From Deltaproteobacteria bacterium (GTDB lineage Bacteria; Desulfobacterota; BSN033; UBA1163), in NCBI GenBank assembly GCA_037441725.1, contig JBBIRT010000002.1, forward strand, positions 2,111 to 55,560: DNA of 53,450 nucleotides, given 5' to 3'. Below the pieces are notes generated by a model that saw only the letters and a program-made list of their open reading frames with translations, made no database searches and had not been told where the DNA came from. Every line of letters starts with the position of its first letter. The stretch's first letter is position 1. Positions 7,907 through 27,848 of this stretch are shown here, in pieces. Position numbers and translations under genes: made by a program.

Positions 7907-9538
7907 TTGGAAGGAATTTATCAGTTGAAAAGAGATGCCCTTAATACCCACCTTCACCAAAGGAGAGGCCCCTCTCCTCCTTCCTCCCAAGAAAAATTGC
8001 TCTTCACATTAGAGAGAAAGCTTAAGGAGCTGACCGTTCTTTATAAAATTAGTCAGCGATTAGGATCTGGACAAAACTGTGAGGAAGTCCTTCCCGAAAT
8101 TCTAAGGATCTTCCATTCACACTTGGGGATGAATCGGGGGACTATCGCTCTATTAGATTCCTTAACGGGCCAGATAGAGGTTCGTGCGGCTCATGGAATG
8201 ACTGAAGAGGAGGTAAAAAGGGGAAGATATTTAGTCGGGGAGGGAATTACCGGAAAAGTGGTGGAATCGGGCAAACCCATGTTCGTTCCACAAATCGAGA
8301 AAGAGCCTCTATTTTTAAATCGAACACGGTGCAGAGATCATATTAAGAAAAGTAACATCTCTTTCATCTGTGTCCCTATCAAAAATGGCCAGAATATTTT
8401 AGGGGCTTTGAGTGTGGATCGACTTTTCAGTGAGGAAATTGCCTTTGAAGAAGATGTCAGACTCCTTTCCATCGTTGCGTCCATGATTGCCCAAGGGCTC
8501 AAGATTCATCAGATGATTCAGGAGGAAAAAGAGGAACTCTTGAATGAAAATCTCCTTCTGAAAGAGAAATTGAGAGAACGATACAATCCCTATAATATTT
8601 TAGGGAAAAGCAATAAAATGAATGAAGTCTTTCAGATGATTGAACAGATTTCAAATACGGATGTAACCGTCCTCATCCGAGGAGAAAGTGGTACCGGTAA
8701 AGAATTGGTAGCCAATGCTATCCATTTTAATAGCCTGCGATCCCTCCAGCCTTTCATAAAGATCAATTGTGCAGCCCTTCCTGAAAACCTTATTGAAAGC
8801 GAATTATTTGGTCATGAGAAGGCAGCCTTCACCGGAGCAACGGAACAAAGAATAGGAAGATTCGAAAGGGCAAACAGAGGTACACTCTTCCTGGATGAAA
8901 TTGGTACTTTGGATCTTAATGCCCAGGCAAAACTGTTAAGGGTTCTGCAAGAGAAAGAATTTGAAAGAATTGGTGGAAGTCGAACGATCCGTGTGGATGT
9001 CCGCATCATTGCGGCTACCAGTAGGAATTTGGAAAAGTCAATGAAAGAGGGAACTTTCAGGGAGGACCTTTATTACCGTCTAAATGTCTTTCCGATTTTT
9101 ATTTCCCCCTTAAGAGAAAGGAAAACGGATATCCTTCTTCTAACTGACCATTTTGTTGAAAAATTCAATCGGAAACATAAAAAGCACGTTCGAAGGATTT
9201 CAACTCCAGCCATAGACATGCTCATGCAGTATCATTGGCCGGGCAATGTGAGAGAACTTGAAAATGTCATCGAGCGGGCTGTCCTCCTCTGCACGGATCG
9301 AGTCATCCACAGCTATCATCTTCCACCTACCCTTCAGACCGGAGAACGATCCGGCACAGTCCCCTCACTCTCTTTCGAAGAGGCAAGGAAAAATTTAGAA
9401 AAGGAGTTGATCATCGATGCTCTTAAAAACTCTCGAGGAAAGATGGCCGAGGCTGCAAGGCTCTTGAGAACCACGGAAAGGGTCGTTTCTTACAGTGTCC
9501 GGAAACTCGGGATTAACCCAAAGTCTTATCGTTCTTAA
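7907..9538 (+). CDS. Sigma-54-dependent transcriptional activator, NifA-like (GAF + AAA+ + HTH)
   Basis: N-terminal GAF ([14 protein letters not shown]), Walker [20 protein letters not shown]-terminal HTH ([23 protein letters not shown]). No receiver domain. The start (TTG 7907) is uncertain. Confidence 0.9.
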
Positions 9539-13087: not shown

Positions 13088-13807
13088 ATGAAAGTTTTAA
13101 TTCTCAAACACGTAGAAATAGAAGGTCCAGGATTAATAGAAGTCTGTTTGAAAAAAGGAAAGATCCCTTACGAGATCCTTGCACTCAACTCCAGTATTTC
13201 TTTACCAAAACTTGATGCTTTCACTCATCTTGTCATCCTGGGTGGTCCCATGAATGTTTATGAAGAAGACCTCTATCCGTTTCTTAAAAAGGAGGACCTC
13301 TTCATCAAAGAGGCTCTGCAAAGAGGGAAATCGATTTTGGGGATCTGTCTGGGAGCCCAGCTGATCGCCAAAGCACTTGGTGCCAAGGTCTTTCAAGCCC
13401 CTATAAAAGAAATTGGCTGGTATAAGGTTTCTTTGACCCCATCCGGCCTTAAGGATCCCATTTTCACCAATCTTCCACAGAGCTTTATGGTATTTCAGTG
13501 GCATGAGGATACATTTGAAATTCCAAAAGGGGCAATCCTACTGGCTACCTCAACCTCCATCCCTCACCAAGCTTTCCGATATGGAGAACATGCCTATGGC
13601 CTACAATTTCATCTCGAGGTAACCGAAGAGATGATTCATAAATGGATGGAAGTTTATAATGGGGAATTGGATCAGAGTAAAAATCCTCATTCCTCAAAAG
13701 CACAAATCCTGATTGAAACTCAAAAGAATATCAATACCTACACTGGAAGAGGGCTAAAATTCTTAAAAAAATTTTTAAGATCGAGCGATGAACCACTGAC
13801 CCTTTGA
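13088..13807 (+). CDS. Stand-alone class I glutamine amidotransferase (GATase1, GuaA-like)
   Basis: 239 aa. Nucleophile elbow GICLGAQLIA and His-x-Glu (LQFHLEV). No synthase domain attached. Confidence 0.85.
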   Translation: MKVLILKHVEIEGPGLIEVCLKKGKIPYEILALNSSISLPKLDAFTHLVILGGPMNVYEEDLYPFLKKEDLFIKEALQRGKSILGICLGAQLIAKALGAKVFQAPIKEIGWYKVSLTPSGLKDPIFTNLPQSFMVFQWHEDTFEIPKGAILLATSTSIPHQAFRYGEHAYGLQFHLEVTEEMIHKWMEVYNGELDQSKNPHSSKAQILIETQKNINTYTGRGLKFLKKFLRSSDEPLTL

Positions 13808-18923: not shown

Positions 18924-20246
18924 ATGGAGAAAGAGACTGTGTTGAAAATGGCAAGGGAAAATAACGTTAAATTTATTCGGCTCTGGTTCACTGACATCCT
19001 GGGGTTTTTAAAAGGGTTTGCAATCACCATTGACGAATTGGAAGGAGCCCTCGAAGAGGGGATGGGATTTGATGGCTCATCCATCCAGGGTTATGCCCGG
19101 ATAGATGAGAGCGACATGATTGCCAAACCCGATCCTAAGACCTTTCAGATCATCCCCTGGAGGCCAAAAGAAAACGCCGTCGCCAGGATGTTTGCAGACA
19201 TCTATGAACCGGATGGAACTCCTTATAAGGGTGATCCCCGATGGGTATTAAAAAGGGCCTTAAATAAGGCCCGAGATCTGGGATATACCTTCTATGTTGG
19301 TCCTGAATTGGAATACTTCTATTTCAAATCAAATGATGGGATTCCTCAAATTCTTGACCGAGGAGGTTATTTTGACCTCACCCCACTTGATGTTGCCACT
19401 GAACTCCGGCGTGAAACCATTTTAACCCTTGAGGCCATGGGGATTCATGTTGAATACAGCCATCATGAAGTGGCTCCCAGCCAACATGAGATTGATCTTA
19501 GATACGAAGAAGCCCTTACCATGGCAGACCACGCCATGACCTATCGTCTCATAGTTAAAGAGATTGCATTACGGCATGGAGTCTATGCGACCTTCATGCC
19601 CAAACCCATCTTTGGACAGAATGGAAGTGGAATGCACACCCATCAATCTCTCTTCAAGGGGGATAAGAATGCCTTTTTCGATCCTAAGGATGAATTTCAT
19701 CTTTCCAAGATAGCCAAATCCTATATTGCGGGTATTTTGAAACATTCAAAGGAGATCACTTCTATTACTTCGCAATGGGTAAATTCCTATAAGAGGCTTG
19801 TGCCGGGTTATGAAGCCCCAGTCTATATCTCCTGGGCAAGAAGAAACCGTTCTGCCCTGGTCCGAGTTCCCATGTATAAACCGGGAAAGGAAAAAGCCAC
19901 TCGGATCGAATTTCGATCACCCGATCCTGCCTGTAATCCATATCTCGCCTTTGCTGTAATGCTTGCAGCAGGATTAAAAGGGATTGAAAAGGGATATGAA
20001 CTTCCTCCACCTGTTGAAGAAGACATCTTTGAGATGTCAGAGGAGGCACGAAAGAGACACGGAATCGAATCCCTTCCCGGAAACCTTCTTGAAGCAATCC
20101 AACTTACAGAAAAAAGTGACTTAGTGCGGGAAACCCTGGGAGATCATATTTTCCAAAAATTTATTGAAAATAAAAAGATGGAATGGGATCAGTACAGGAC
20201 CCATGTCTCTCAATTTGAACTGGAGAAATATCTACCCATTTTATAG
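18924..20246 (+). CDS. glnA: Glutamine synthetase, type I (short, GSI-alpha-like)
   Basis: 440 aa. Motifs FTDILG, GFDGSSI, GPELEYF, SHHEVAPSQHEID, NGSGMHTHQS, RVP...ATRIEFRSPD. RBS AAAGGAGG. Confidence 0.95.
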   Translation: MEKETVLKMARENNVKFIRLWFTDILGFLKGFAITIDELEGALEEGMGFDGSSIQGYARIDESDMIAKPDPKTFQIIPWRPKENAVARMFADIYEPDGTPYKGDPRWVLKRALNKARDLGYTFYVGPELEYFYFKSNDGIPQILDRGGYFDLTPLDVATELRRETILTLEAMGIHVEYSHHEVAPSQHEIDLRYEEALTMADHAMTYRLIVKEIALRHGVYATFMPKPIFGQNGSGMHTHQSLFKGDKNAFFDPKDEFHLSKIAKSYIAGILKHSKEITSITSQWVNSYKRLVPGYEAPVYISWARRNRSALVRVPMYKPGKEKATRIEFRSPDPACNPYLAFAVMLAAGLKGIEKGYELPPPVEEDIFEMSEEARKRHGIESLPGNLLEAIQLTEKSDLVRETLGDHIFQKFIENKKMEWDQYRTHVSQFELEKYLPIL

Positions 20247-20279
20247 GGGGTGAAAGAAAAAGTTTAGGGGTTGATAAGA

Positions 20280-23200
20280 ATGAACCAAAATAGAAATCAT
20301 TTAACCTGGAAAAAATATCTTGAAGATTTTCTACAGCATCATTCTGACTTAAAGGTAATCGAAGATCCTGAGAAACTTGAGTACTATCGTTCTGATCTTA
20401 ATGTGGATCTCCCTCCTCTGATTCGTGATTTAATGTTAAAAAGCCTTCCGGATCTGGTTCTTCAACCCTCCACAGAAGAACACATATTAAAGATCTTTGA
20501 TTTAGCGCGTAAGCATAAAATCCCATTAACGATTCGAGGGGCTGGCACCTGGGGATATGGAGGAGCAGTCCCAACCCAGGGAGGAATTCTGATTGACCTC
20601 AACTTAATGGATAAGATTGAAGTCAATCCCGAAACCCTGGAGCTGACGGTTGGGCCAGGGGCGCGTTTTCATGACATCCACCAACAACTCGAACGATATG
20701 GACTCTCCCTTCTCAGCATGACATCTGGTAAAGGTGGAACGTTCATCGGATGGATCGCTACAGGAGGGATGGGATATGGTACCTTCCATTATGGCCCTGT
20801 AGAAAAACAGTTGATCTCCCTTCGGGTAATTTCTCCGGATGGAAGGATTCGAGAAATCAAATCAGAAGATCCAGAAATCAAATACTTTCTTTCAACAGAA
20901 GGCCAGATGGGTATCATCGTTCAAGCAACGTTAAAAATTGGGAAACAACCCTCCCGATGGTTTCCCTTTCTGCTCCCCTTTGAGACACAAGCCTCTGCCT
21001 ACACCTTGACTCAGAAGCTTTCCCATCATCCTTTCATTAAACCCGATGATCTGATGGTTTATCATAACGAATTGGTACGAATGCTCAAGTCACAATCAAA
21101 CGGAAAGATAACCATCCCTGATAAGAATCTCATGTTAGTTGTCTTTTCAAGAGAGGAAAAGGCCCAAGAATTTAAAACTTATCTGCAAGAAAATTCTATT
21201 CAACCTGCTGATGAAGAATTAGCCCACTATCTTTGGAAAGAACGATTCGTTCCAATGTCCATCAAACCGTTTGGACCATCTCTTTTAGCCGTGGAGGTTC
21301 TTCTCCCTATCGATCAGGTGGCCCCCTATTGTGAAAAGATCAGCGAGTGGGGAAAACGATTAGGCGTAAGCCTTTATCCTTCCTCCCATCTCGTGAGCAA
21401 GGATCAGGTCCTTTTCCTGGCCATGATCACCTCAGACCATCGAAAGACTATCTTCTATATTGATTTGATGCTTATTCCCATGATGGTTCGCCTTGCTGTC
21501 CAATTTTATCGAGGAAAACCCTATGGTCTTGGAATATGGAATACACCCTTTTTGCATGATCTCTATTCAAAGGAAGAGCGAAAGGATCTCATCCAATACA
21601 AAAGAAAGGTAGATCCATTAAAGATCCTGAATCCCGGAAAGTTCTTTCATGTTTCCGGAAGATTAGGTCCCCTTCAAAAAATTCTCTTCCATTCAGATCT
21701 TTTCAACCTTGAACTCGCCTCTACCCAATGGCTTCTTCTTAAACTCTTCTCCATTCTTCCGGAGAAAAAATTTCGGAAGCGCATCCCCATCCCACCACAA
21801 GGATTGGAGAAGATCGCTTATGAGGTCTTTTCTTGCGCTCAATGCGGAAATTGTGTAACTCGATGCCCAGTCTATCGGGCAACGAGGGATGAAACCTTTA
21901 CGGCACGGGGAAAACTTCTCACCATGAAGAGGGCCATAGAAACTCAAAAGATCGAACTTTCAAAAGTCCTTCCTCTTTATTTCTGTCTCCATTGTGGACG
22001 TTGTGATGAAGAGTGTCAGGTCAGCATAAACCATCGCCAGCTTTATAAGGATCTCGAGAAATATCTTTCAGATCGTATCGATTTTCCCATCCGGGAAATC
22101 ACTGACTTCGTCCAGGAGGTAGAAAAAAGTCCTGAATTTTATCGTTTTCTGGATGTCATCCGAACAGGCTTCGATCAAAAGATTCGAGAACAGCGGCAAA
22201 CCTTTTCAAAATACCGTGTTCGTATCGATGAGGAATATTGCCTTCATTGCGGGACCTGTGTGGATGCCTGCATGTATAGTGTTCGCAAACGGAATGATGC
22301 CGATCCACGTCAAGTTATCGTGGTGGATGAATCCCTGTGCCGGGGCTGTGGGGCATGTTTAGAACGTTGCCCCCAGATAGCAGCAGGCCTTCCAGCGACA
22401 TCGGTAGAACTCCATCCTGACTATCTCAGTATGGATCATCCCTATTGGAATAGCGAAGTCATATCACGGATCGACCTTGAGGCCACGACAGGAAAGATCC
22501 CCGTCTCTGGAACAGGTCAGGGAGATCCCCACCGGGGCTCGGGCAACGATGGGATTCGTTTTGGTCATTTTCATATCGTCGGGCCAGCCCAGAATCTTCT
22601 CTATGAGAGTTCTGCCGATGCGATTGCCATTCACCTTGGCCAGCGGCCTAAATATCTCAAGTTCAATGGAGTGGAGATCGAAACTCCCCCACCCCGTCTC
22701 GTCCATCTTAAAACCCCTTTAATCCTTGATATCCTTCCAGGCAATCAAAACGATGAATTATTAGATGCCATGCTGGAGGCAGCCTCCACGATGGGAACTC
22801 GTGTTACCCTCCGTTGGGAAGAGGTGAAACGATTTAGCTCAAAGATTGGAAATCGGTTGAATACCCTTATCCTTCGTCTCACCCTTGAAGACCTCAAAAA
22901 TATATTGGAGGGAAAGGAGAAGGTAAACTTGCTTAAGGATTCTCTTTTCGATTTGATTGAAATTGAATGGGAGGATTCCTTTTTGAATCATTTCAATCAA
23001 TTGAGGAGTCTCTTTTCAGAATCTCAAGTTCTCTGTGCTGTTTTAAAAGTGAAAAAAGAGGATGTCTCCCCTGAACTTCAGCTTTCTTCTGAATTTCAAA
23101 AAAGGTTAGAGTTACTTTCCCAATCCCCTTTTGATGTCCTTTGTCTTTCCTCAGATTACGACTCTGATCAAGGGTATTATCCCACGACTGATGCCGTTCC

Positions 23201-26200
23201 AGCCGTTCACCGCTTCCTGGTCTCAAGGAAAATCAGACATCGCTTTTCAATCCTTGCCTCTGGAGGTATCCGTTCTGCTGCAGATTCCCAGAAAACGATC
23301 CAGAGGGGGGCCAATGGAATCAAGATTGACTGGCCTGTCTTATTGGTGGCTGATTTCATGGCCCTAAAAAAATTCAGGCAGGGAGAAGTCATTATTCCCT
23401 TACATGATCGTTCAACCCTTATTAAAAGGTTGATCAATTTAATACGTGTTTGGAATATCCAGATCATCGAGGTCCTCGGAGCTTCTGGCTTTAAGGATAT
23501 TAAAAAAACGGTGGGTGAAGAAAATCGGCTCCTCATTTTCGACGATTTGGAAGAAAGGGTCTATGACATTTTCAAAAGTTCACCCCGACTCCAAAGAAAT
23601 AAACAATATAACCTGAAACGGATTCAAAGAGAAGGAGAATCCATTGGATGGCGATACAGCCAGTTAAAAGGATTGATTCAATCTGCCAAACACCCCCATC
23701 AATTTTATCACTGTCATCTCAATCCTGCTTGTTACCGGATCTTTGACCGAGATCATGTATGGCCTGCCTCTCTCATCGCTTCAGTGGGACGTATGGCCAG
23801 TGGGGATCGAAAGACCTTATTCCTTAACCAAACCGAGGAGCGTGGAAACTTAGGGGATGGTTTTGATTTCATTCATATTCAATTTCAACAAAATCCAGAT
23901 ACCCTCCCCGACGAGCGATTAGAGGAGGTCTCAACAGGTCTTCAAATCTCCCCTCAATTACGATTGAAAAGTCCTTTTATTGGGGCCGGAATGTCTGTAG
24001 GATCCGTTGGCCCCGGAACCTGGCGGGCTCGGGTACTGGCCACCCGGGCTCTGGGCACTCAAATGGATACCGGTGAAGGTGGGTATCCGACCTTTTTTAT
24101 TCTTGACTCAAAATGGAATCCTTTAGATCTCACTGATCAACAGGTCAATTGGCTAAGCCGTTTTATGGAAGAAAGAAAGCTTATCCCTATTGAATCATTG
24201 ATGAAACGACTTTCTCAAGAAGTTGAACCTACCCCTGAATATCAGACCCTTTTAGAAACCCTGAGGAAGTATCCTCCATCGATGACTGTTCAATATGTTC
24301 CTATTGTCACCCCTGAAGATGAACCTTTTGTCTCTACCCAATTAAAAACAGGACTCTTTGGAGTGACCAAAGAAACCATCCGTAGGGCTCGTCGGGTGGT
24401 GATTGCTTACAGCCAGGGAGCCAAACAGGGGGTAGGAGGACATTTATTGGGGAGGAAGGTCTTTGGCTTGGTCTCTCGGCTAAGGGGTGTGGCAGAAGGA
24501 GTAAGTCTTATCTCTCCATTTCCATTCCACAATTGTTATTCCATTGAAGATGTGAAGGCATTCATCGATGCCGTTCGTATGATCAACCTTAAAGCCACCA
24601 TCTGCATCAAGGTTTCACCCTCCCCTGACATTGAGTTCATTGTCTCAGGCCTTGCTCGTATTGCTAAAGACAATGACATGGTGATCGAGGTCTGGTTGGA
24701 TGGACCGCGTGGGGGGACAGGTGCAGCTCCTGACATCATCAAAGGTCAAATGGGAATGCATATGGAATATGCCATTCCCATCTGCCATGAAAAGTTGCTG
24801 GATGATGGATTAAGGGACTACGTCGTTTTTATGGGAAGTGGTGGGTTTCGAACCTGGGGAGATGTCATCAAGGGAATTGCCCTCGGATTGGATGGAGTCA
24901 TTCTTGGAACAGCCGATCTGGTGGCTATCGGTTGCGTGAGGGACCGAAACTGCGAGTCAGGGTGTCGAAGTGGCATTTCCACCATTGAACCTAAAATGCA
25001 ACTACTCAGAAATGTTGAACTGAATACCCAGCAGATCATTAACTTCCGTGCCCTTTTACAAGCCCAGACGATCCGAGCCCTCGCAGCCCTCGGGATGAAG
25101 GATATTCGAGAACTTCGTGGACGCTACGACTGTATCCAATGGTCTCTCCTCGAAGAGAGGGTTGAAAAGCGTCGTCGTCAGAGGAAGGAGCCATCCTGGG
25201 TTGAACCTGTCCCCAGCCTATCCTTGGAGCCTGCTCCTCCTTCAGATTGCGGGGTGGCGGCCATCGTATCCAATCATTTCATTCCAAGTCATGTCATGGA
25301 CCTGATGTTAGATCGAATGGCTAATCGGGGGATGGATGGGGTAGGAATCTGGAAAGGAGGATGTTACCCTAACCATTTAGAGGATTATGCCATCCATGTA
25401 TTGATTAAAGGCCCCCTCCAGACTCAGATTGAAGAAGAATATCAAAGTAGAGAACCTGATATCGATCCAGAAGAGATTCGACGTCAGGCAAGAAAAACGA
25501 TCCTGGACAGACGCCAACGAATCATGCGGGAGATTCTCAAGCAATATTTCAAAGGCCTTGATTTAAAAGATTTTGACGGCGATCTGGAAAAGAATCGAAT
25601 CCCCTATCGTCGAGATCAAGAAGGATCGGAGCAAGATTACCGAAGCTTTGGAGATAAAGATCCAGGGGATGTGTTTCGATTCTTTGTCCGGGTCAATCAG
25701 GATGAACTGAGTCGCTTCATTGAAAATGAGTTAATAAAAGATTCAATTTGGCCTCCCTGGCAGTTGCGTTATCAAGGTCTGAATCTCCAGAATTATAAAG
25801 AGAATAGAGAATTTCTCCAAGAGGCGGAGGATGAGTATATCTATCGGTTGGCTCGTCGGATCACCTTTGAAAACTATGTAAAGGACCAACAGAAAAAAGC
25901 GGCGGTTCTTTCTTGTGGAAAGAATTCGGGTTGCTGGAAAAGCGATGGCCGCCACCTTCCATGGGAGCTGCCTGATGCCCCTGTCAATATTATCCACCGA
26001 AGGTTGGCTACAGGTTCTGTAGTAGATCAAATGAACGCCCATCCCTTCTCAGAACTTCATACCGCTTTAACCCATAATGGAGAAACCACCAATTATCGGA
26101 CCATGCTCAATCGTGTGTCTCAATTCAACCTAACCCCATTAGCTCAAACCGACACGGCTGTTGCATCTCTCAAACTTCATCTACTCAGCCAGTACCTCCA

Positions 26201-27848
26201 CTATCCTTTTGATGCATTGGTTGAATCCTTTTCTCCCACCACTGGATGGAGCTTGACTCAGCTTCCCTCAGAAATGAGGGAGCGTTTTGAACGTATCCAG
26301 GAGGTAGAATTGGAAAGCGCCCCTGATGGGCCCTATCAATATCTCTGTGGACGTATCGATCCCTATCAAAGAGTAATTGAGCGTCTCGATATTATCGATC
26401 CTTCCTTGCTCAGGCCTAATGTGGCAATGCTCTATGATGATGGGGAAAATTTTGTAAGCATTATCTGCTCTGAGAAACAGGGGAGTGATGCAGGAATGCA
26501 GGAATTATTTCGATTGGGATTGATGAAGAGCACCATCTCCCCACTCATCTTTACCGTTAATCCCGGGATGCTAAGCAGGGTCTTCTATGATGAAAAAGGG
26601 AGGATTACAGGATATGAGGTGTTGGATAAATTCGGTAAGAAAATTGAGATCCCTCATGGAACCTTTCCTCCACAGAAGTCCCTCCCACTTGTGGAGGCTT
26701 CTGAGAGGATTGAATTTGAACCCAGTCCATCCCTCTTTATTAAAGATCGGCTGCCTCGCTGGAGTTTTCTGGAGTTTGAAAAGGCCTTAAAAGAATTATC
26801 GAGTAAGCTTCCTCCATCAAAGGCCATTGAGGAATTGACCTGGATTCATGATCATCTCATTGGCTGGGATACTGGAGACAAAGATAGAGGCGCTCTCATT
26901 CATACCGTAAAAAATGTGATCAACACTTTCTTAGATCATATAAGCCATAAAAAGGAATTTTTCAGGGTGACGATTGGAAAGGCAACCGAATTAAACCCCC
27001 CAGAAGACGGGGAACAGGTGTTAGTGGTCGATGCTCGTGGTTTTCGACCTGAGGGGATAGATCCCTTTAGGGTGCTAAGTCCTTTTCTCGATCATGCCCA
27101 TAAGATGGGTTGGAGGAAATTCATTGTCTACCGGGTAGAGGGTCAGCGAGGGATTGGTATGGGGATCGGTTCTGGCCAGACGAACGACACTCAGATCGAT
27201 GTTTACGGAAGCCCAGGTGAATATTGTGGTGCCTTCAATATGGGAGCCTTGGTACGGGTCCACACCCATTCACAGAACTTCACAGGGATGGTGATGCATT
27301 CAGGAACGTTAGAAATCCACGGAGATGTCGGCAAGGTCACTGGATACTCGGCCAAAGGAGGAACATTCAACATCCTCGGAAATGTTGTTGATCGTGGATG
27401 GGTCTGCGCGGTCAGTGATCCGAGAGGGCCTGGACTGGAGGTCAATATTGTGGGGACCGCTTATGAGCACCTCTGTCAGGCCTTCATGGGAGGTTCAGTA
27501 ATCATGCTGGGACTTTTTTGGGGACCGGATGGAATGCTCCATCGAATGCAGTCTCCCTATAAAGGTGGGAAAATCCTGGCCGGGGCCTCTGCAGGTGAGG
27601 TCATCTTCTATGATCCTGAGAAGAGATTAAACCAAGAGCAATATAAAAGTTGTGTTTCCAATCCCATGAATGGGAAAAAGTGGGGGGAAATTATGAACCG
27701 TCTGATGAATCTTGAAAAGATCTTTAGCCTCGGTTTTTCCAGAAAGAACGACCATCTCACGGTTAGAATGGATGGGGATTTTCAGAATCTCACCCCGGAC
27801 AAATTTCTATGGTTATTACCAAAAGGAGAATTGGAAGGGTACCATTAA
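20280..27848 (+). CDS. Giant multidomain glutamate-synthase-like fusion: FAD-linked oxidase + Fe-S modules + two GltS-type barrels + class II amidotransferase + GXGXG domain
   Basis: Single uninterrupted ORF (ATG 20280, or TTG 20271). Motifs in order: FAD PCMH-type (RGAGTWGYGG), CAQCGNCVTRCP/CLHCGRCDEEC, CLHCGTCVDAC/CRGCGACLERCP, a degenerate barrel (ASGGIRSAADS), then an FMN barrel (GAGMSVGSVG...DTGEGG, QGAKQGVGGHL, DGPRGGTGAAP, GSGGFRTWGDV, GCVRDRNCESGC). These are followed by GATase II (CGVAAIV, RGMDGVGIW, NAHPF, HNGETTNY) and a GXGXG region (GQRGIGMGIGSG ... GSPGEYCGAFNMG ... GDVGKVTGYSAKGG). Confidence 0.85.
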   Translation: MNQNRNHLTWKKYLEDFLQHHSDLKVIEDPEKLEYYRSDLNVDLPPLIRDLMLKSLPDLVLQPSTEEHILKIFDLARKHKIPLTIRGAGTWGYGGAVPTQGGILIDLNLMDKIEVNPETLELTVGPGARFHDIHQQLERYGLSLLSMTSGKGGTFIGWIATGGMGYGTFHYGPVEKQLISLRVISPDGRIREIKSEDPEIKYFLSTEGQMGIIVQATLKIGKQPSRWFPFLLPFETQASAYTLTQKLSHHPFIKPDDLMVYHNELVRMLKSQSNGKITIPDKNLMLVVFSREEKAQEFKTYLQENSIQPADEELAHYLWKERFVPMSIKPFGPSLLAVEVLLPIDQVAPYCEKISEWGKRLGVSLYPSSHLVSKDQVLFLAMITSDHRKTIFYIDLMLIPMMVRLAVQFYRGKPYGLGIWNTPFLHDLYSKEERKDLIQYKRKVDPLKILNPGKFFHVSGRLGPLQKILFHSDLFNLELASTQWLLLKLFSILPEKKFRKRIPIPPQGLEKIAYEVFSCAQCGNCVTRCPVYRATRDETFTARGKLLTMKRAIETQKIELSKVLPLYFCLHCGRCDEECQVSINHRQLYKDLEKYLSDRIDFPIREITDFVQEVEKSPEFYRFLDVIRTGFDQKIREQRQTFSKYRVRIDEEYCLHCGTCVDACMYSVRKRNDADPRQVIVVDESLCRGCGACLERCPQIAAGLPATSVELHPDYLSMDHPYWNSEVISRIDLEATTGKIPVSGTGQGDPHRGSGNDGIRFGHFHIVGPAQNLLYESSADAIAIHLGQRPKYLKFNGVEIETPPPRLVHLKTPLILDILPGNQNDELLDAMLEAASTMGTRVTLRWEEVKRFSSKIGNRLNTLILRLTLEDLKNILEGKEKVNLLKDSLFDLIEIEWEDSFLNHFNQLRSLFSESQVLCAVLKVKKEDVSPELQLSSEFQKRLELLSQSPFDVLCLSSDYDSDQGYYPTTDAVPAVHRFLVSRKIRHRFSILASGGIRSAADSQKTIQRGANGIKIDWPVLLVADFMALKKFRQGEVIIPLHDRSTLIKRLINLIRVWNIQIIEVLGASGFKDIKKTVGEENRLLIFDDLEERVYDIFKSSPRLQRNKQYNLKRIQREGESIGWRYSQLKGLIQSAKHPHQFYHCHLNPACYRIFDRDHVWPASLIASVGRMASGDRKTLFLNQTEERGNLGDGFDFIHIQFQQNPDTLPDERLEEVSTGLQISPQLRLKSPFIGAGMSVGSVGPGTWRARVLATRALGTQMDTGEGGYPTFFILDSKWNPLDLTDQQVNWLSRFMEERKLIPIESLMKRLSQEVEPTPEYQTLLETLRKYPPSMTVQYVPIVTPEDEPFVSTQLKTGLFGVTKETIRRARRVVIAYSQGAKQGVGGHLLGRKVFGLVSRLRGVAEGVSLISPFPFHNCYSIEDVKAFIDAVRMINLKATICIKVSPSPDIEFIVSGLARIAKDNDMVIEVWLDGPRGGTGAAPDIIKGQMGMHMEYAIPICHEKLLDDGLRDYVVFMGSGGFRTWGDVIKGIALGLDGVILGTADLVAIGCVRDRNCESGCRSGISTIEPKMQLLRNVELNTQQIINFRALLQAQTIRALAALGMKDIRELRGRYDCIQWSLLEERVEKRRRQRKEPSWVEPVPSLSLEPAPPSDCGVAAIVSNHFIPSHVMDLMLDRMANRGMDGVGIWKGGCYPNHLEDYAIHVLIKGPLQTQIEEEYQSREPDIDPEEIRRQARKTILDRRQRIMREILKQYFKGLDLKDFDGDLEKNRIPYRRDQEGSEQDYRSFGDKDPGDVFRFFVRVNQDELSRFIENELIKDSIWPPWQLRYQGLNLQNYKENREFLQEAEDEYIYRLARRITFENYVKDQQKKAAVLSCGKNSGCWKSDGRHLPWELPDAPVNIIHRRLATGSVVDQMNAHPFSELHTALTHNGETTNYRTMLNRVSQFNLTPLAQTDTAVASLKLHLLSQYLHYPFDALVESFSPTTGWSLTQLPSEMRERFERIQEVELESAPDGPYQYLCGRIDPYQRVIERLDIIDPSLLRPNVAMLYDDGENFVSIICSEKQGSDAGMQELFRLGLMKSTISPLIFTVNPGMLSRVFYDEKGRITGYEVLDKFGKKIEIPHGTFPPQKSLPLVEASERIEFEPSPSLFIKDRLPRWSFLEFEKALKELSSKLPPSKAIEELTWIHDHLIGWDTGDKDRGALIHTVKNVINTFLDHISHKKEFFRVTIGKATELNPPEDGEQVLVVDARGFRPEGIDPFRVLSPFLDHAHKMGWRKFIVYRVEGQRGIGMGIGSGQTNDTQIDVYGSPGEYCGAFNMGALVRVHTHSQNFTGMVMHSGTLEIHGDVGKVTGYSAKGGTFNILGNVVDRGWVCAVSDPRGPGLEVNIVGTAYEHLCQAFMGGSVIMLGLFWGPDGMLHRMQSPYKGGKILAGASAGEVIFYDPEKRLNQEQYKSCVSNPMNGKKWGEIMNRLMNLEKIFSLGFSRKNDHLTVRMDGDFQNLTPDKFLWLLPKGELEGYH

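What the first reader, a model, noticed from the sequence alone, without database searches (positions are those of the whole stretch)
25140..25275. Ntn-type catalytic cysteine buried ~1,657 residues inside the polypeptide
Class II amidotransferases (PurF, GltB, GlmS, AsnB) require the catalytic Cys to be the free N-terminal residue. Known GltB and PurF propeptides are only about 11-42 aa. Here the motif ...EPAPPSD-CGVAAIVSN (Cys codon 25248-25250) follows a basic/Pro-rich linker (EKRRRQRKEPSWVEPVPSLSLEPAPPSD). No ATG/GTG/TTG immediately precedes the Cys codon and there is no RBS, so internal initiation is unlikely. Either the giant protein self-cleaves at D|C into ~185-kDa and ~95-kDa chains, or the glutaminase works without a free alpha-amine or is inactive. 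Each outcome would be unusual.
Basis: partly seen in the sequence, partly recalled or inferred. Interest (0 to 1): 0.7.

Follow-up and report, generated by a model that had tools for sequence, protein, structure and literature searches.

The report
Buried catalytic cysteine in giant glutamate synthase
A 2,525-residue glutamate-synthase-like fusion protein carries a glutamine-splitting domain whose catalytic cysteine normally has to be the first residue of a chain but here lies about 1,660 residues in, so the protein most likely cuts itself in two at a strictly conserved site, which has not been described for this enzyme class.

Summary
One intact ORF (20271-27848, +) encodes FAD_binding_4/Fe-S, two Glu_synthase barrels, then a class II (Ntn) glutamine amidotransferase (GAT) domain and a GXGXG beta-helix. 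Cys1660 (codon 25248-25250; residue 1657 from the ATG) aligns with Cys1 of E. coli GltB. It opens the first beta-strand of a predicted fold that matches only GltS, GlmS, PurF and AsnS. The glutamine-site residues (R1911, T1914, N1936, G1937, D1961) are invariant across relatives.

The gene follows glnA in an amtB-glnK-glnD-glnA-X-carAB cluster, so it is probably the organism's GOGAT.

The same internal arrangement occurs as uninterrupted 2,500-2,950-aa ORFs in Syntrophia-like Thermodesulfobacteriota, Calditrichota/KSB1 and a third lineage. Thousands of unfused relatives (about 880 aa) never start Met-Cys; they carry a leader of roughly 30-50 aa. In each clade P3-P1 before the Cys is invariant (PSD, Q-S/T-N, EGG) while the rest of the linker varies in sequence and length. 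No conserved internal start codon exists.

Best reading: the giant protein arose by fusion of an operon whose GAT subunit already depended on propeptide removal, and it self-cleaves at D1659|C1660 into chains of about 188 and 99 kDa. Cleavage itself is inferred, not shown. This is a new variant of a known kind.

The parts
20271..27848 (+). Giant ORF of 2,525 aa from the TTG (ATG at 20280 gives 2,522 aa). Glutamate-synthase-like fusion protein.
   Evidence: Full-length orthologous single ORFs occur in L002 (2,531 aa), L003 (2,565 aa), L006 (2,535 aa) and P0192 (2,526 aa).
20448..20858 (+). FAD_binding_4 domain (GlcD-like), residues 60-196. Part of the N-terminal electron-input module.
   Evidence: Pfam PF01565, 108.5 bits. 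A weak FAD-oxidase_C match follows it.
21825..22376 (+). Fe-S cluster motifs: GlcF-like Fer4_8/17 (residues 519-586) and a 2x[4Fe-4S] ferredoxin domain (residues 650-702).
   Evidence: Pfam.
22248..23552 (+). First, divergent Glu_synthase-like domain (residues ~660-1094). Counterpart of the separate 470-aa Glu_synthase protein in unfused operons.
   Evidence: blastp against the L001 470-aa protein, E 3e-30. Weak PF01645 match.
23814..25097 (+). Glu_synthase FMN/synthase domain (residues 1182-1609).
   Evidence: PF01645, 256.7 bits. 44% identical to the L001 Fer4+Glu_synthase subunit.
25143..25247 (+). Linker, i.e. the predicted propeptide end of the N-terminal chain (residues 1625-1659). It has a conserved LEERV plus basic run, then a variable Pro-rich stretch, then the invariant P-S-D.
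   Evidence: pLDDT 30-45 in the model. Length is 31-49 aa in the clade and the sequence is hypervariable.
25239..25247 (+). P3-P1 of the predicted scissile site: Pro1657-Ser1658-Asp1659.
   Evidence: Invariant in 22/22 distinct clade A junctions, while P4 and positions upstream vary.
25248..25250 (+). Cys1660, the predicted N-terminal nucleophile of the glutaminase domain.
   Evidence: Invariant in 188 distinct junctions. Aligned with GltB Cys1. First residue of strand 1 in the model.
25248..26627 (+). Class II (Ntn) glutamine amidotransferase core, residues 1660-~2119. An insertion of about 220 aa lies between the NRG motif (1685-1687) and HRRLATG (1909-1915).
   Evidence: Pfam GATase_6, PDB sequence match to GlmS, Foldseek, alignment A1.
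26001..26153 (+). Glutamine-site residues R1911, T1914, N1936, G1937 and D1961, equivalent to GlmS R73, T76, N98, G99 and D123.
   Evidence: Alignment to 1xff_A. Invariant columns R288, T291, N313, G314 and D338 of A1. Coordinates.
26727..26939 (+). Helical connector between the GAT domain and the beta-helix (residues ~2153-2223).
   Evidence: AF2 secondary structure, H528-598.
26958..27821 (+). GXGXG beta-helix domain (residues ~2230-2517).
   Evidence: PF01493, 33.5 bits. FwdC/FmdC matches. Model strands 605-892.
18924..20246 (+). glnA (glutamine synthetase), ending 25 nt upstream of the giant ORF. It supplies the glutamine substrate.
   Evidence: Pfam Gln-synt_C/N. The glnA-giant adjacency is conserved in L002, L003 and L006.

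Best explanation
The 287-kDa polypeptide is a precursor. Its C-terminal third is a class II (Ntn) glutaminase domain followed by a GXGXG beta-helix. This part is homologous to a free-standing subunit that other bacteria and archaea make with an N-terminal propeptide of roughly 30-50 residues.

In this lineage the genes of a three-gene glutamate-synthase-like operon, plus a GlcD/GlcF-like FAD/Fe-S module, fused into one ORF. The old propeptide became the interdomain linker.

After folding, the thiol of Cys1660 attacks the Asp1659-Cys1660 peptide bond (N-to-S acyl shift followed by hydrolysis), as in other Ntn enzymes. The P3-P1 residues Pro-Ser-Asp help to set up the scissile bond. This frees the alpha-amino group of Cys1660, which the glutaminase needs as its general base.

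The products are chains of about 188 kDa (FAD/Fe-S plus two Glu_synthase barrels) and about 99 kDa (GAT-GXGXG). They stay associated and work like the subunits of the unfused enzyme: glutamine from the adjacent GS is hydrolysed at Cys1660, and the ammonia passes to the FMN/2-oxoglutarate site.

Shown here: the domain identity, the position of the Cys, its conservation and that of the junction, the colinearity with the operon, and the nitrogen-assimilation context. Inferred: the cleavage itself, that it is autocatalytic, that the two chains remain associated, and the GOGAT reaction.
For: 1. The ORF is intact, and the same internal arrangement is found as single ORFs in independent genomes: clade A at 2,531-2,565 aa, clade B (Calditrichota/KSB1) at 2,810-2,953 aa, and clade D (P0206, P0260).

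2. It is an Ntn class II GAT. Cys1660 aligns with GltB Cys1. The residues equivalent to GlmS R73/T76/N98/G99/D123 are invariant. In the AF2 model the first strand starts at the Cys and the linker is disordered. Every Foldseek hit with E <= 0.001 is GltS, GlmS, PurF or ASNS.

3. More than 50 unfused relatives in GTDB genomes, and more than 7,600 in the protein collection, never begin Met-Cys. They carry a leader ending in an invariant EGG|C. The family therefore already depends on propeptide removal.

4. P3-P1 is invariant within each clade (PSD 22/22, Q-S/T-N 22/22, EGG 142/142), while P4 and upstream positions and the linker length vary. This is the pattern expected of a processing site.

5. 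E. coli GltB has the site ERDN|CGFG, which resembles clade B's GQ(S/T)N|CGVA.

6. No conserved in-frame start codon precedes the Cys. Seven loci have none within 30 codons.

7. The giant protein is colinear with the L001 operon Glu_synthase(470)-Fer4/Glu_synthase(516)-GAT/GXGXG(885).

8. The nitrogen context amtB-glnK-glnD-glnA-X-carAB is conserved in orthologous loci. A working glutamine-dependent enzyme is therefore expected.

9. The review PMC9140057 states that in MEROPS family C44 the Cys is preceded by a few residues that are removed autocatalytically.
Against: No protein-level data exist, so cleavage is inferred by analogy only.

AF2 gives no confident geometry for the scissile bond. 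It also has low confidence (pLDDT 35-52) around the HNGE/TDT loops.

The Pfam GATase_6 score is only marginal: 26.3 bits in the whole protein and 28.6 bits for the domain alone, against a cut-off of 27.

No class II GAT is known, to my knowledge or in the held literature, to release more than about 100 residues upstream. Whether a 188-kDa folded N-terminal chain is compatible with formation of the strained precursor conformation is unknown.

The invariance of P3-P1 could also reflect packing of these residues against the GAT domain in an uncleaved protein.
Confidence: 0.6

Rival explanations
1. The chain is cut at or next to D1659|C1660, but by a separate cellular protease or aminopeptidase rather than by the Cys itself.
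For: The invariance of P3-P1 would equally fit a protease recognition site. Autocatalysis has not been rigorously demonstrated for all GltB propeptides (my own knowledge).
Against: The P3-P1 motif differs completely between clades (PSD, QSN/QTN, EGG, xDA) across very distant phyla including archaea. A shared dedicated protease is therefore unlikely. Autoprocessing is the family norm (PMC9140057). No peptidase gene was seen among the neighbours examined.
Confidence: 0.12
2. The polypeptide stays intact and the glutaminase is inactive or vestigial. The enzyme would use free ammonia, and the GAT domain would serve only as scaffold or regulator.
For: Two ammonium transporters are encoded nearby. 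Some GAT-like subunits of related systems, such as N-methylglutamate synthase, do not need glutamine hydrolysis (my own knowledge).
Against: The Cys and all glutamine-binding and oxyanion residues are invariant down to 30% identity across at least four clades. This would not be expected of a dead site. The gene directly follows glnA in four loci, which is the GS-GOGAT arrangement.
Confidence: 0.1
3. The polypeptide stays intact and the glutaminase is active with a peptide-bonded Cys, using another group as general base.
For: Nothing direct. The evidence does not exclude it, because cleavage is unproven. The invariant P1 Asp/Asn could in principle supply a base.
Against: In characterised class II GATs, N-terminal extensions or tags abolish glutamine-dependent activity (my own knowledge of GlmS/GFAT, AsnB and PurF). 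Clade C has Gly and clade D has Ala at P1, so no common substitute base exists.
Confidence: 0.08
4. The GAT-GXGXG part is translated separately from an internal start site in the linker.
For: An in-frame TTG lies 8 codons before the Cys (25224). Several orthologues have Met at -6. An SD-like AGGAAGGAG lies at 25182-25190.
Against: No SD precedes the TTG, and the SD-like element has no in-frame start at a usable distance. Seven clade A/B loci have no ATG/GTG/TTG within 30 codons of the Cys. Even if it were used, a leader would still have to be removed.
Confidence: 0.03

Closest known systems
Glutamate synthase large subunit GltB / Fd-GltS (E. coli, Azospirillum, Synechocystis, B. subtilis GltA)
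   Same: The same four kinds of module are present: a class II GAT with Cys1, an FMN Glu_synthase barrel and a GXGXG beta-helix. The precursor has residues before the Cys that are removed; E. coli has MLYDKSLERDN|CGFG. The P1 Asn matches clade B. It is also linked to GS in nitrogen assimilation.
   Different: In GltB the GAT comes first and the propeptide is about 11-42 aa. Here the order is FMN then GAT then GXGXG, and about 1,656 folded residues precede the Cys. The NCBIfam GltB equivalog scores 143 bits against a cut-off of 1047. The GAT domain carries an insertion of about 220 aa. The electron-input module is GlcD/GlcF-like rather than GltD or ferredoxin.
Unfused three-gene relatives (clade C; e.g. 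L001: Glu_synthase 470 aa, Fer4+Glu_synthase 516 aa, GAT-GXGXG 885 aa). They resemble the archaeal-type split glutamate synthases (COG0067/0069/0070).
   Same: Colinear and homologous to residues 660-2498 of the giant protein. The GAT insertion is the same. The Cys is always preceded by a leader with an invariant P3-P1.
   Different: These are separate polypeptides. The leader is only about 30-50 aa and ends in EGG rather than PSD. No FAD_binding_4 module was seen in the L001 operon.
B. subtilis PurF (glutamine PRPP amidotransferase)
   Same: A class II Ntn GAT whose active Cys is exposed by removal of a propeptide (my own knowledge; PMC9140057). It is a Foldseek match (1ao0_A).
   Different: The propeptide is 11 residues, and the partner domain is C-terminal.
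Ntn hydrolases that self-cleave internally into two chains (gamma-glutamyltranspeptidase, glycosylasparaginase, penicillin G acylase, acid ceramidase)
   Same: The nucleophile lies inside the precursor. Autoproteolysis yields an N-terminal chain and a C-terminal chain that begins with the nucleophile, and the two stay associated. Glycosylasparaginase also has Asp at P1 (my own knowledge).
   Different: These belong to other Ntn families, are not amidotransferases, and do not channel ammonia. Their N-terminal chain is part of the same fold, whereas here it would be a 188-kDa multi-domain redox module.

Membership tests
Class II (PurF-type, Ntn; MEROPS C44) glutamine amidotransferase | Four-layer alpha-beta-beta-alpha Ntn fold | tested here: met
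   AF2 model with pTM 0.81. All Foldseek PDB hits with E <= 0.001 are GltS, GlmS/GFAT, PurF or ASNS, with probability up to 1.00.
Class II (PurF-type, Ntn; MEROPS C44) glutamine amidotransferase | Catalytic Cys at the start of the first beta-strand, homologous to Cys1 | tested here: met
   Cys1660 aligns with E. coli GltB Cys1 (hhalign E 2e-4 to 9e-4). Strand E36-46 of the model begins right after Cys35. Invariant in 188 junctions.
Class II (PurF-type, Ntn; MEROPS C44) glutamine amidotransferase | Glutamine-binding and oxyanion residues (GlmS R73, T76, N98, G99, D123) | tested here: met
   R1911, T1914, N1936, G1937 and D1961 are aligned to 1xff_A and are invariant in alignment A1.
Class II (PurF-type, Ntn; MEROPS C44) glutamine amidotransferase | Cys is the N-terminal residue of the mature chain (free alpha-amine) | not testable with these tools
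   In the gene it is residue 1660 of one ORF. Protein chemistry is needed.
Class II (PurF-type, Ntn; MEROPS C44) glutamine amidotransferase | Curated profile score above threshold | tested here: inconclusive
   GATase_6 scores 26.3 bits (cut-off 27) in the whole protein and 28.6 bits when the domain is scanned alone. The match covers only the HRR...TDT core.
Glutamate synthase (GOGAT), GltB type | FMN/synthase domain (PF01645) and GXGXG domain (PF01493) | tested here: met
   256.7 bits against 20.4, and 33.5 bits against 32.5.
Glutamate synthase (GOGAT), GltB type | Canonical domain order GAT-central-FMN-GXGXG with GAT at the N-terminus | tested here: not met
   The order is FAD/Fe-S, Glu_synthase-like, FMN, GAT, GXGXG.
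Glutamate synthase (GOGAT), GltB type | NCBIfam equivalog score (NF008730) | tested here: not met
   143.3 bits against a cut-off of 1047.
Glutamate synthase (GOGAT), GltB type | Glutamine + 2-oxoglutarate + 2 e- gives 2 glutamate | not testable with these tools
   Context only: the gene lies directly downstream of glnA in an amtB-glnK-glnD-glnA-X-carAB cluster, and this is conserved in L002, L003, L004 and L006.
Internally autoprocessed two-chain Ntn hydrolases (works-like comparison) | Nucleophile internal in the precursor, with conserved residues flanking the scissile bond | tested here: met
Internally autoprocessed two-chain Ntn hydrolases (works-like comparison) | Demonstrated autoproteolysis into two associated chains | not testable with these tools

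The most novel reading that the evidence does not exclude
The polypeptide is not cleaved, and the class II glutaminase is nevertheless active with a peptide-bonded internal cysteine, using some other general base. That would overturn the rule that Ntn amidotransferases need a free N-terminal alpha-amine.
Probability: 0.08. Interest if true: 0.9.

Novelty: new variant of a known kind. Interest (0 to 1): 0.62.

Why it matters
Class II amidotransferases are the textbook case of a domain that must sit at the N-terminus, and every characterised fusion puts the partner domain behind it. This family has at least three lineages of 2,500-3,000-residue proteins in Thermodesulfobacteriota, Calditrichota/KSB1 and others. 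It shows that the constraint can be escaped when the domain already carries a self-removing propeptide.

If cleavage is confirmed, it would be the first amidotransferase matured like gamma-glutamyltranspeptidase or penicillin acylase, with a polyprotein-like precursor yielding a two-chain enzyme. It would also give a defined, transplantable D|C or N|C self-cleavage junction.

The finding also flags an undescribed type of probable glutamate synthase with a built-in GlcD/GlcF-like electron-input module. This protein sits at the centre of nitrogen assimilation in abundant anaerobes and is currently annotated as 'hypothetical', 'glycolate dehydrogenase subunit' or 'glutamate synthase-related'.

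Tried and rejected
- **Assembly chimera or frameshift artefact: rejected.** Independent full-length single ORFs exist in at least 3 clade A and at least 9 clade B genomes, plus P0192. The shorter 'proteins' in the database are contig-end fragments or frameshifted calls. For example, P0005 ends in out-of-frame sequence, and L011 and L004 break inside the FMN domain rather than at the junction.
- **Natural gene split exactly at the junction in clades A/B:** looked for, none found.
- **Internal initiation: rejected**.
- **'Not really an Ntn GAT': rejected**.
- **Literature:** nine full-text searches found no description of an internal class II GAT cysteine or of this fusion. Absence from that library is not proof of absence.
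- **hhalign of the whole GAT region against E. coli GltB** aligned only the C-terminal half, because of the ~220-aa insertion. The N-terminal part had to be aligned separately, and its statistics are modest.
- **A second AF2 job on FMN plus GAT** was considered and not run. The tool returns no coordinates or PAE, so the interdomain geometry could not have been assessed.
- **Homology between the clade C leader and the clade A/B linker** (fusion by loss of a stop codon) is suggested only weakly by alignment A1. I treat it as inference.
Full report
**Observation**

The window holds one uninterrupted ORF at 20271-27848 on the + strand. It is 2,525 codons from a TTG, or 2,522 from the ATG at 20280, which has an AGGGG Shine-Dalgarno sequence in front. 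That Cys is residue 1660 from the TTG and 1657 from the ATG.

**Domain content**

| Domain | Residues | Score |
|---|---|---|
| FAD_binding_4 | 60-196 | 108.5 bits |
| GlcF-like Fe-S motif | 519-586 | |
| 2x[4Fe-4S] ferredoxin domain | 650-702 | |
| Glu_synthase FMN domain | 1182-1609 | 256.7 bits |
| GATase_6 (weak) | 1898-1964 | 26.3 bits in the whole protein, 28.6 bits for the domain alone; cut-off 27 |
| GXGXG | 2304-2462 | 33.5 bits |

These are Pfam results. Residues about 660-1094 form a second, divergent Glu_synthase-like domain.

**Is the domain really of the Ntn class, and is this Cys the nucleophile?**

Yes, on four independent lines of evidence.

1. A sequence search of the PDB aligns residues 1905-1966 with E. 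coli GlmS residues 67-128. This places R1911, T1914, N1936-G1937 and D1961 on GlmS R73, T76, N98-G99 and D123.
2. In a 14-sequence alignment that reaches down to 29% identity, the Cys, the NRG motif and all of these residues are invariant.
3. A profile of the N-terminal part aligns PSD|CG...NRG with RDN|CG...HRG of E. coli GltB. The E-values are 2e-4 to 9e-4, which is modest, but the register is right. The C-terminal half aligns with E 5e-6.
4. An AlphaFold2 model of residues 1626-2525 has mean pLDDT 75.7 and pTM 0.81. The 34 residues before the Cys have pLDDT 30-45. The first beta-strand starts directly at the Cys.

Foldseek against the PDB returns only class II amidotransferases with E <= 0.001: B. 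subtilis and Synechocystis GltS, GlmS/GFAT, PurF and ASNS. FwdC-type beta-helices follow for the GXGXG part.

One caveat on the model: its confidence is low (pLDDT 35-52) around the HNGE/TDT loops.

**Context**

The neighbours run in this order: a sigma-54 activator, a porin, amtB, glnK (P-II), a small class I GATase, amtB, glnK, glnD, glnA, the giant ORF (25 nt after glnA), then carA and carB. The order P-II/glnA, giant ORF, carAB is conserved in the orthologous loci L002, L003, L004 and L006. The protein is therefore very probably the GOGAT partner of GS, and a functional glutamine site is expected.

**Relatives**

A word-indexed search found only fragments of close relatives. These are contig ends or frameshifted gene calls. 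A scan of one genome per GTDB species, analysed, shows three groups.

| Clade | Taxa | Form | Position of Cys | Junction |
|---|---|---|---|---|
| A | Syntrophaceae, Syntrophorhabdus, other Thermodesulfobacteriota | Single ORFs of 2,531-2,565 aa | 1665-1699 | PSD\|CGVAAIVSN |
| B | Calditrichota, KSB1 and similar; about 40% identity | Single ORFs of 2,810-2,953 aa with the same architecture | ~1935-1993 | GQ(S/T)N\|CGVAA |
| C | Many phyla including Bathyarchaeia; about 30% identity; more than 7,600 proteins | Stand-alone GAT-GXGXG protein of about 880 aa | Follows a leader of roughly 30-50 aa | EEGG\|CGV(T/V)GF |

No clade C sequence begins Met-Cys.

An exhaustive HMMER search of 1.84 billion cluster representatives found only 171 relatives at E <= 1e-3. 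Among them:

- a 2,526-aa clade A protein (P0192);
- a third internal-Cys lineage: P0206 with Cys1896 and P0260 with Cys1991, both with the junction xDA|CGVVSF and the same domain order;
- one 3,152-aa protein (P0204) with the opposite order, GAT(Cys79)-GXGXG-FAD-Glu_synthase. This shows that the modules have been shuffled more than once.

**The junction**

Across 188 distinct junction strings, P3-P1 is invariant within each clade: PSD in 22/22, Q-S/T-N in 22/22 (one has V for Q), and EGG in 142/142. Positions P4 and upstream are variable. A fragment not counted in that set, P0069, reads PAD|C.

The linker from the last conserved Trp of the FMN domain to the Cys is 31-49 aa in clade A and 34-48 aa in clade B. 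It has a conserved LEERV-plus-basic start and a hypervariable middle rich in indels.

No in-frame start codon is conserved. Seven clade A/B loci have none within 30 codons of the Cys. The window's TTG at 25224 (position -8) lacks a Shine-Dalgarno sequence. The apparent 'splits' in L011 and L004 are frameshifts inside the FMN domain, not at the junction.

**Origin**

The giant protein is colinear with the clade C operon of locus L001.

| L001 gene | Matches giant-protein residues |
|---|---|
| Glu_synthase (470 aa) | 660-1094 |
| Fer4+Glu_synthase (516 aa) | 1161-1620 |
| GAT-GXGXG (885 aa; its leader starts 20 nt after the previous stop) | 1798-2498 |

The simplest history is a fusion of these genes plus a GlcD/GlcF-like module, with the leader of the GAT subunit becoming the interdomain linker. 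Because this GAT lineage already exposed its Cys by removing a propeptide rather than by methionine removal, adding anything upstream cost nothing. This step is inference.

**Mechanism proposed**

As in other Ntn enzymes, the folded precursor cleaves the D1659-C1660 bond through attack by the Cys thiol. This frees the alpha-amine that the glutaminase needs. The review PMC9140057 states that in MEROPS family C44 the Cys is preceded by a few residues that are removed autocatalytically.

E. coli GltB, as annotated in MG1655, has the 11-residue leader MLYDKSLERDN|CGFG. A P1 Asn, as in clade B, therefore has a direct precedent. A P1 Asp has one in glycosylasparaginase (my own knowledge, not tested here).

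Cleavage would give chains of 188.5 and 98.8 kDa, which presumably stay together like the subunits of the unfused enzyme. I put about 0.6 on autocatalytic cleavage and about 0.7 on cleavage by any route.

The rivals are:

- a trans-acting protease;
- an uncleaved protein with a dead glutaminase, which is hard to square with the invariant catalytic residues;
- an uncleaved but active glutaminase, which would contradict what is known of GlmS/GFAT, AsnB and PurF;
- internal initiation.

**Comparison with what is known**

The protein works like a GltS whose domains are permuted and extended. It is not a member of the GltB equivalog: it scores 143 bits against a cut-off of 1047, and the domain order differs.

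The GAT domain meets every sequence and fold criterion of class II GATs that could be tested. The defining free N-terminus cannot be tested in silico.

The maturation mode proposed is that of gamma-glutamyltranspeptidase, glycosylasparaginase, penicillin acylase or acid ceramidase. To my knowledge, and in nine full-text searches, it has not been described for an amidotransferase. Databases label these proteins 'hypothetical', 'glycolate dehydrogenase FAD-linked subunit' or 'glutamate synthase-related'.

**Verdict**

The most likely of its three outcomes is self-cleavage. This is a new variant of a known kind, with interest of about 0.6: surprising to specialists in amidotransferases and glutamate synthase, readily testable, but mechanistically anticipated by the wider Ntn superfamily and so far supported only by sequence inference.

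Noticed in passing
window 20271-22400 (residues 1-710 of the giant ORF): The N-terminal module is GlcD-like (FAD_binding_4, weak FAD-oxidase_C) followed by GlcF-like and ferredoxin-type Fe-S motifs. It stands where GltD or ferredoxin would normally deliver electrons. This suggests an undescribed electron donor for a GOGAT, for example a 2-hydroxy acid such as D-lactate, glycolate or D-2-hydroxyglutarate. The donor was not investigated.
   Followed up: partly
window 25341-25988 (residues ~1691-1906): An insertion of about 220 aa lies inside the GAT domain, between the NRG and HRRLATG motifs. Its own conserved motifs (DPGDVFRFFVRV, AEDEYIY) are shared by all clades. The insertion is longer in clades B and D and in P0204. 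It is mostly helical in the model, and its function is unknown.
   Followed up: partly
P0204 (3,152 aa; ENA metagenome contig of 60.7 kb): This protein has the same modules in the opposite order: GAT (Cys79 after a 78-aa leader ending TEGG), GXGXG, FAD_binding_4/FAD-oxidase_C, Glu_synthase. The set of modules has therefore been fused independently in both orders.
   Followed up: partly
L001 4384-12658 (clade C locus, ENA contig of 1.14 Mb): The unfused Glu_synthase/Glu_synthase/GAT-GXGXG operon lies directly downstream of FlpD-, DUF5981- and MTHFR-family genes, and a GS-like gene is nearby. This hints at a link with methylene-THF reductase or heterodisulfide-reductase-type electron transfer.
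   Followed up: no
window 13088-13807: A small stand-alone class I glutamine amidotransferase (239 aa) is wedged between the two amtB-glnK pairs. Its stop overlaps the start of the second amtB. Its partner and function are unknown.
   Followed up: no
window 25182-25203: An SD-like AGGAAGGAG lies inside the linker coding sequence (it encodes RKE). Ten nt downstream is an out-of-frame TTG that opens only a short (~34-codon) ORF. It is probably fortuitous.
   Followed up: yes
P0005, P0009, P0011, P0021, P0035 (ENA contigs of 30-143 kb); L004, L011: Many database entries for this gene are broken by frameshifts even on long contigs. The full-length architecture is therefore under-represented and mis-annotated in protein collections.
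   Followed up: partly
window 7907-9538: A GAF-domain sigma-54 activator (NtrC/NifA-like) lies upstream of the porin-amtB-glnK cluster. It suggests sigma-54 control of the whole nitrogen-assimilation region. No promoter scan was done.
   Followed up: no
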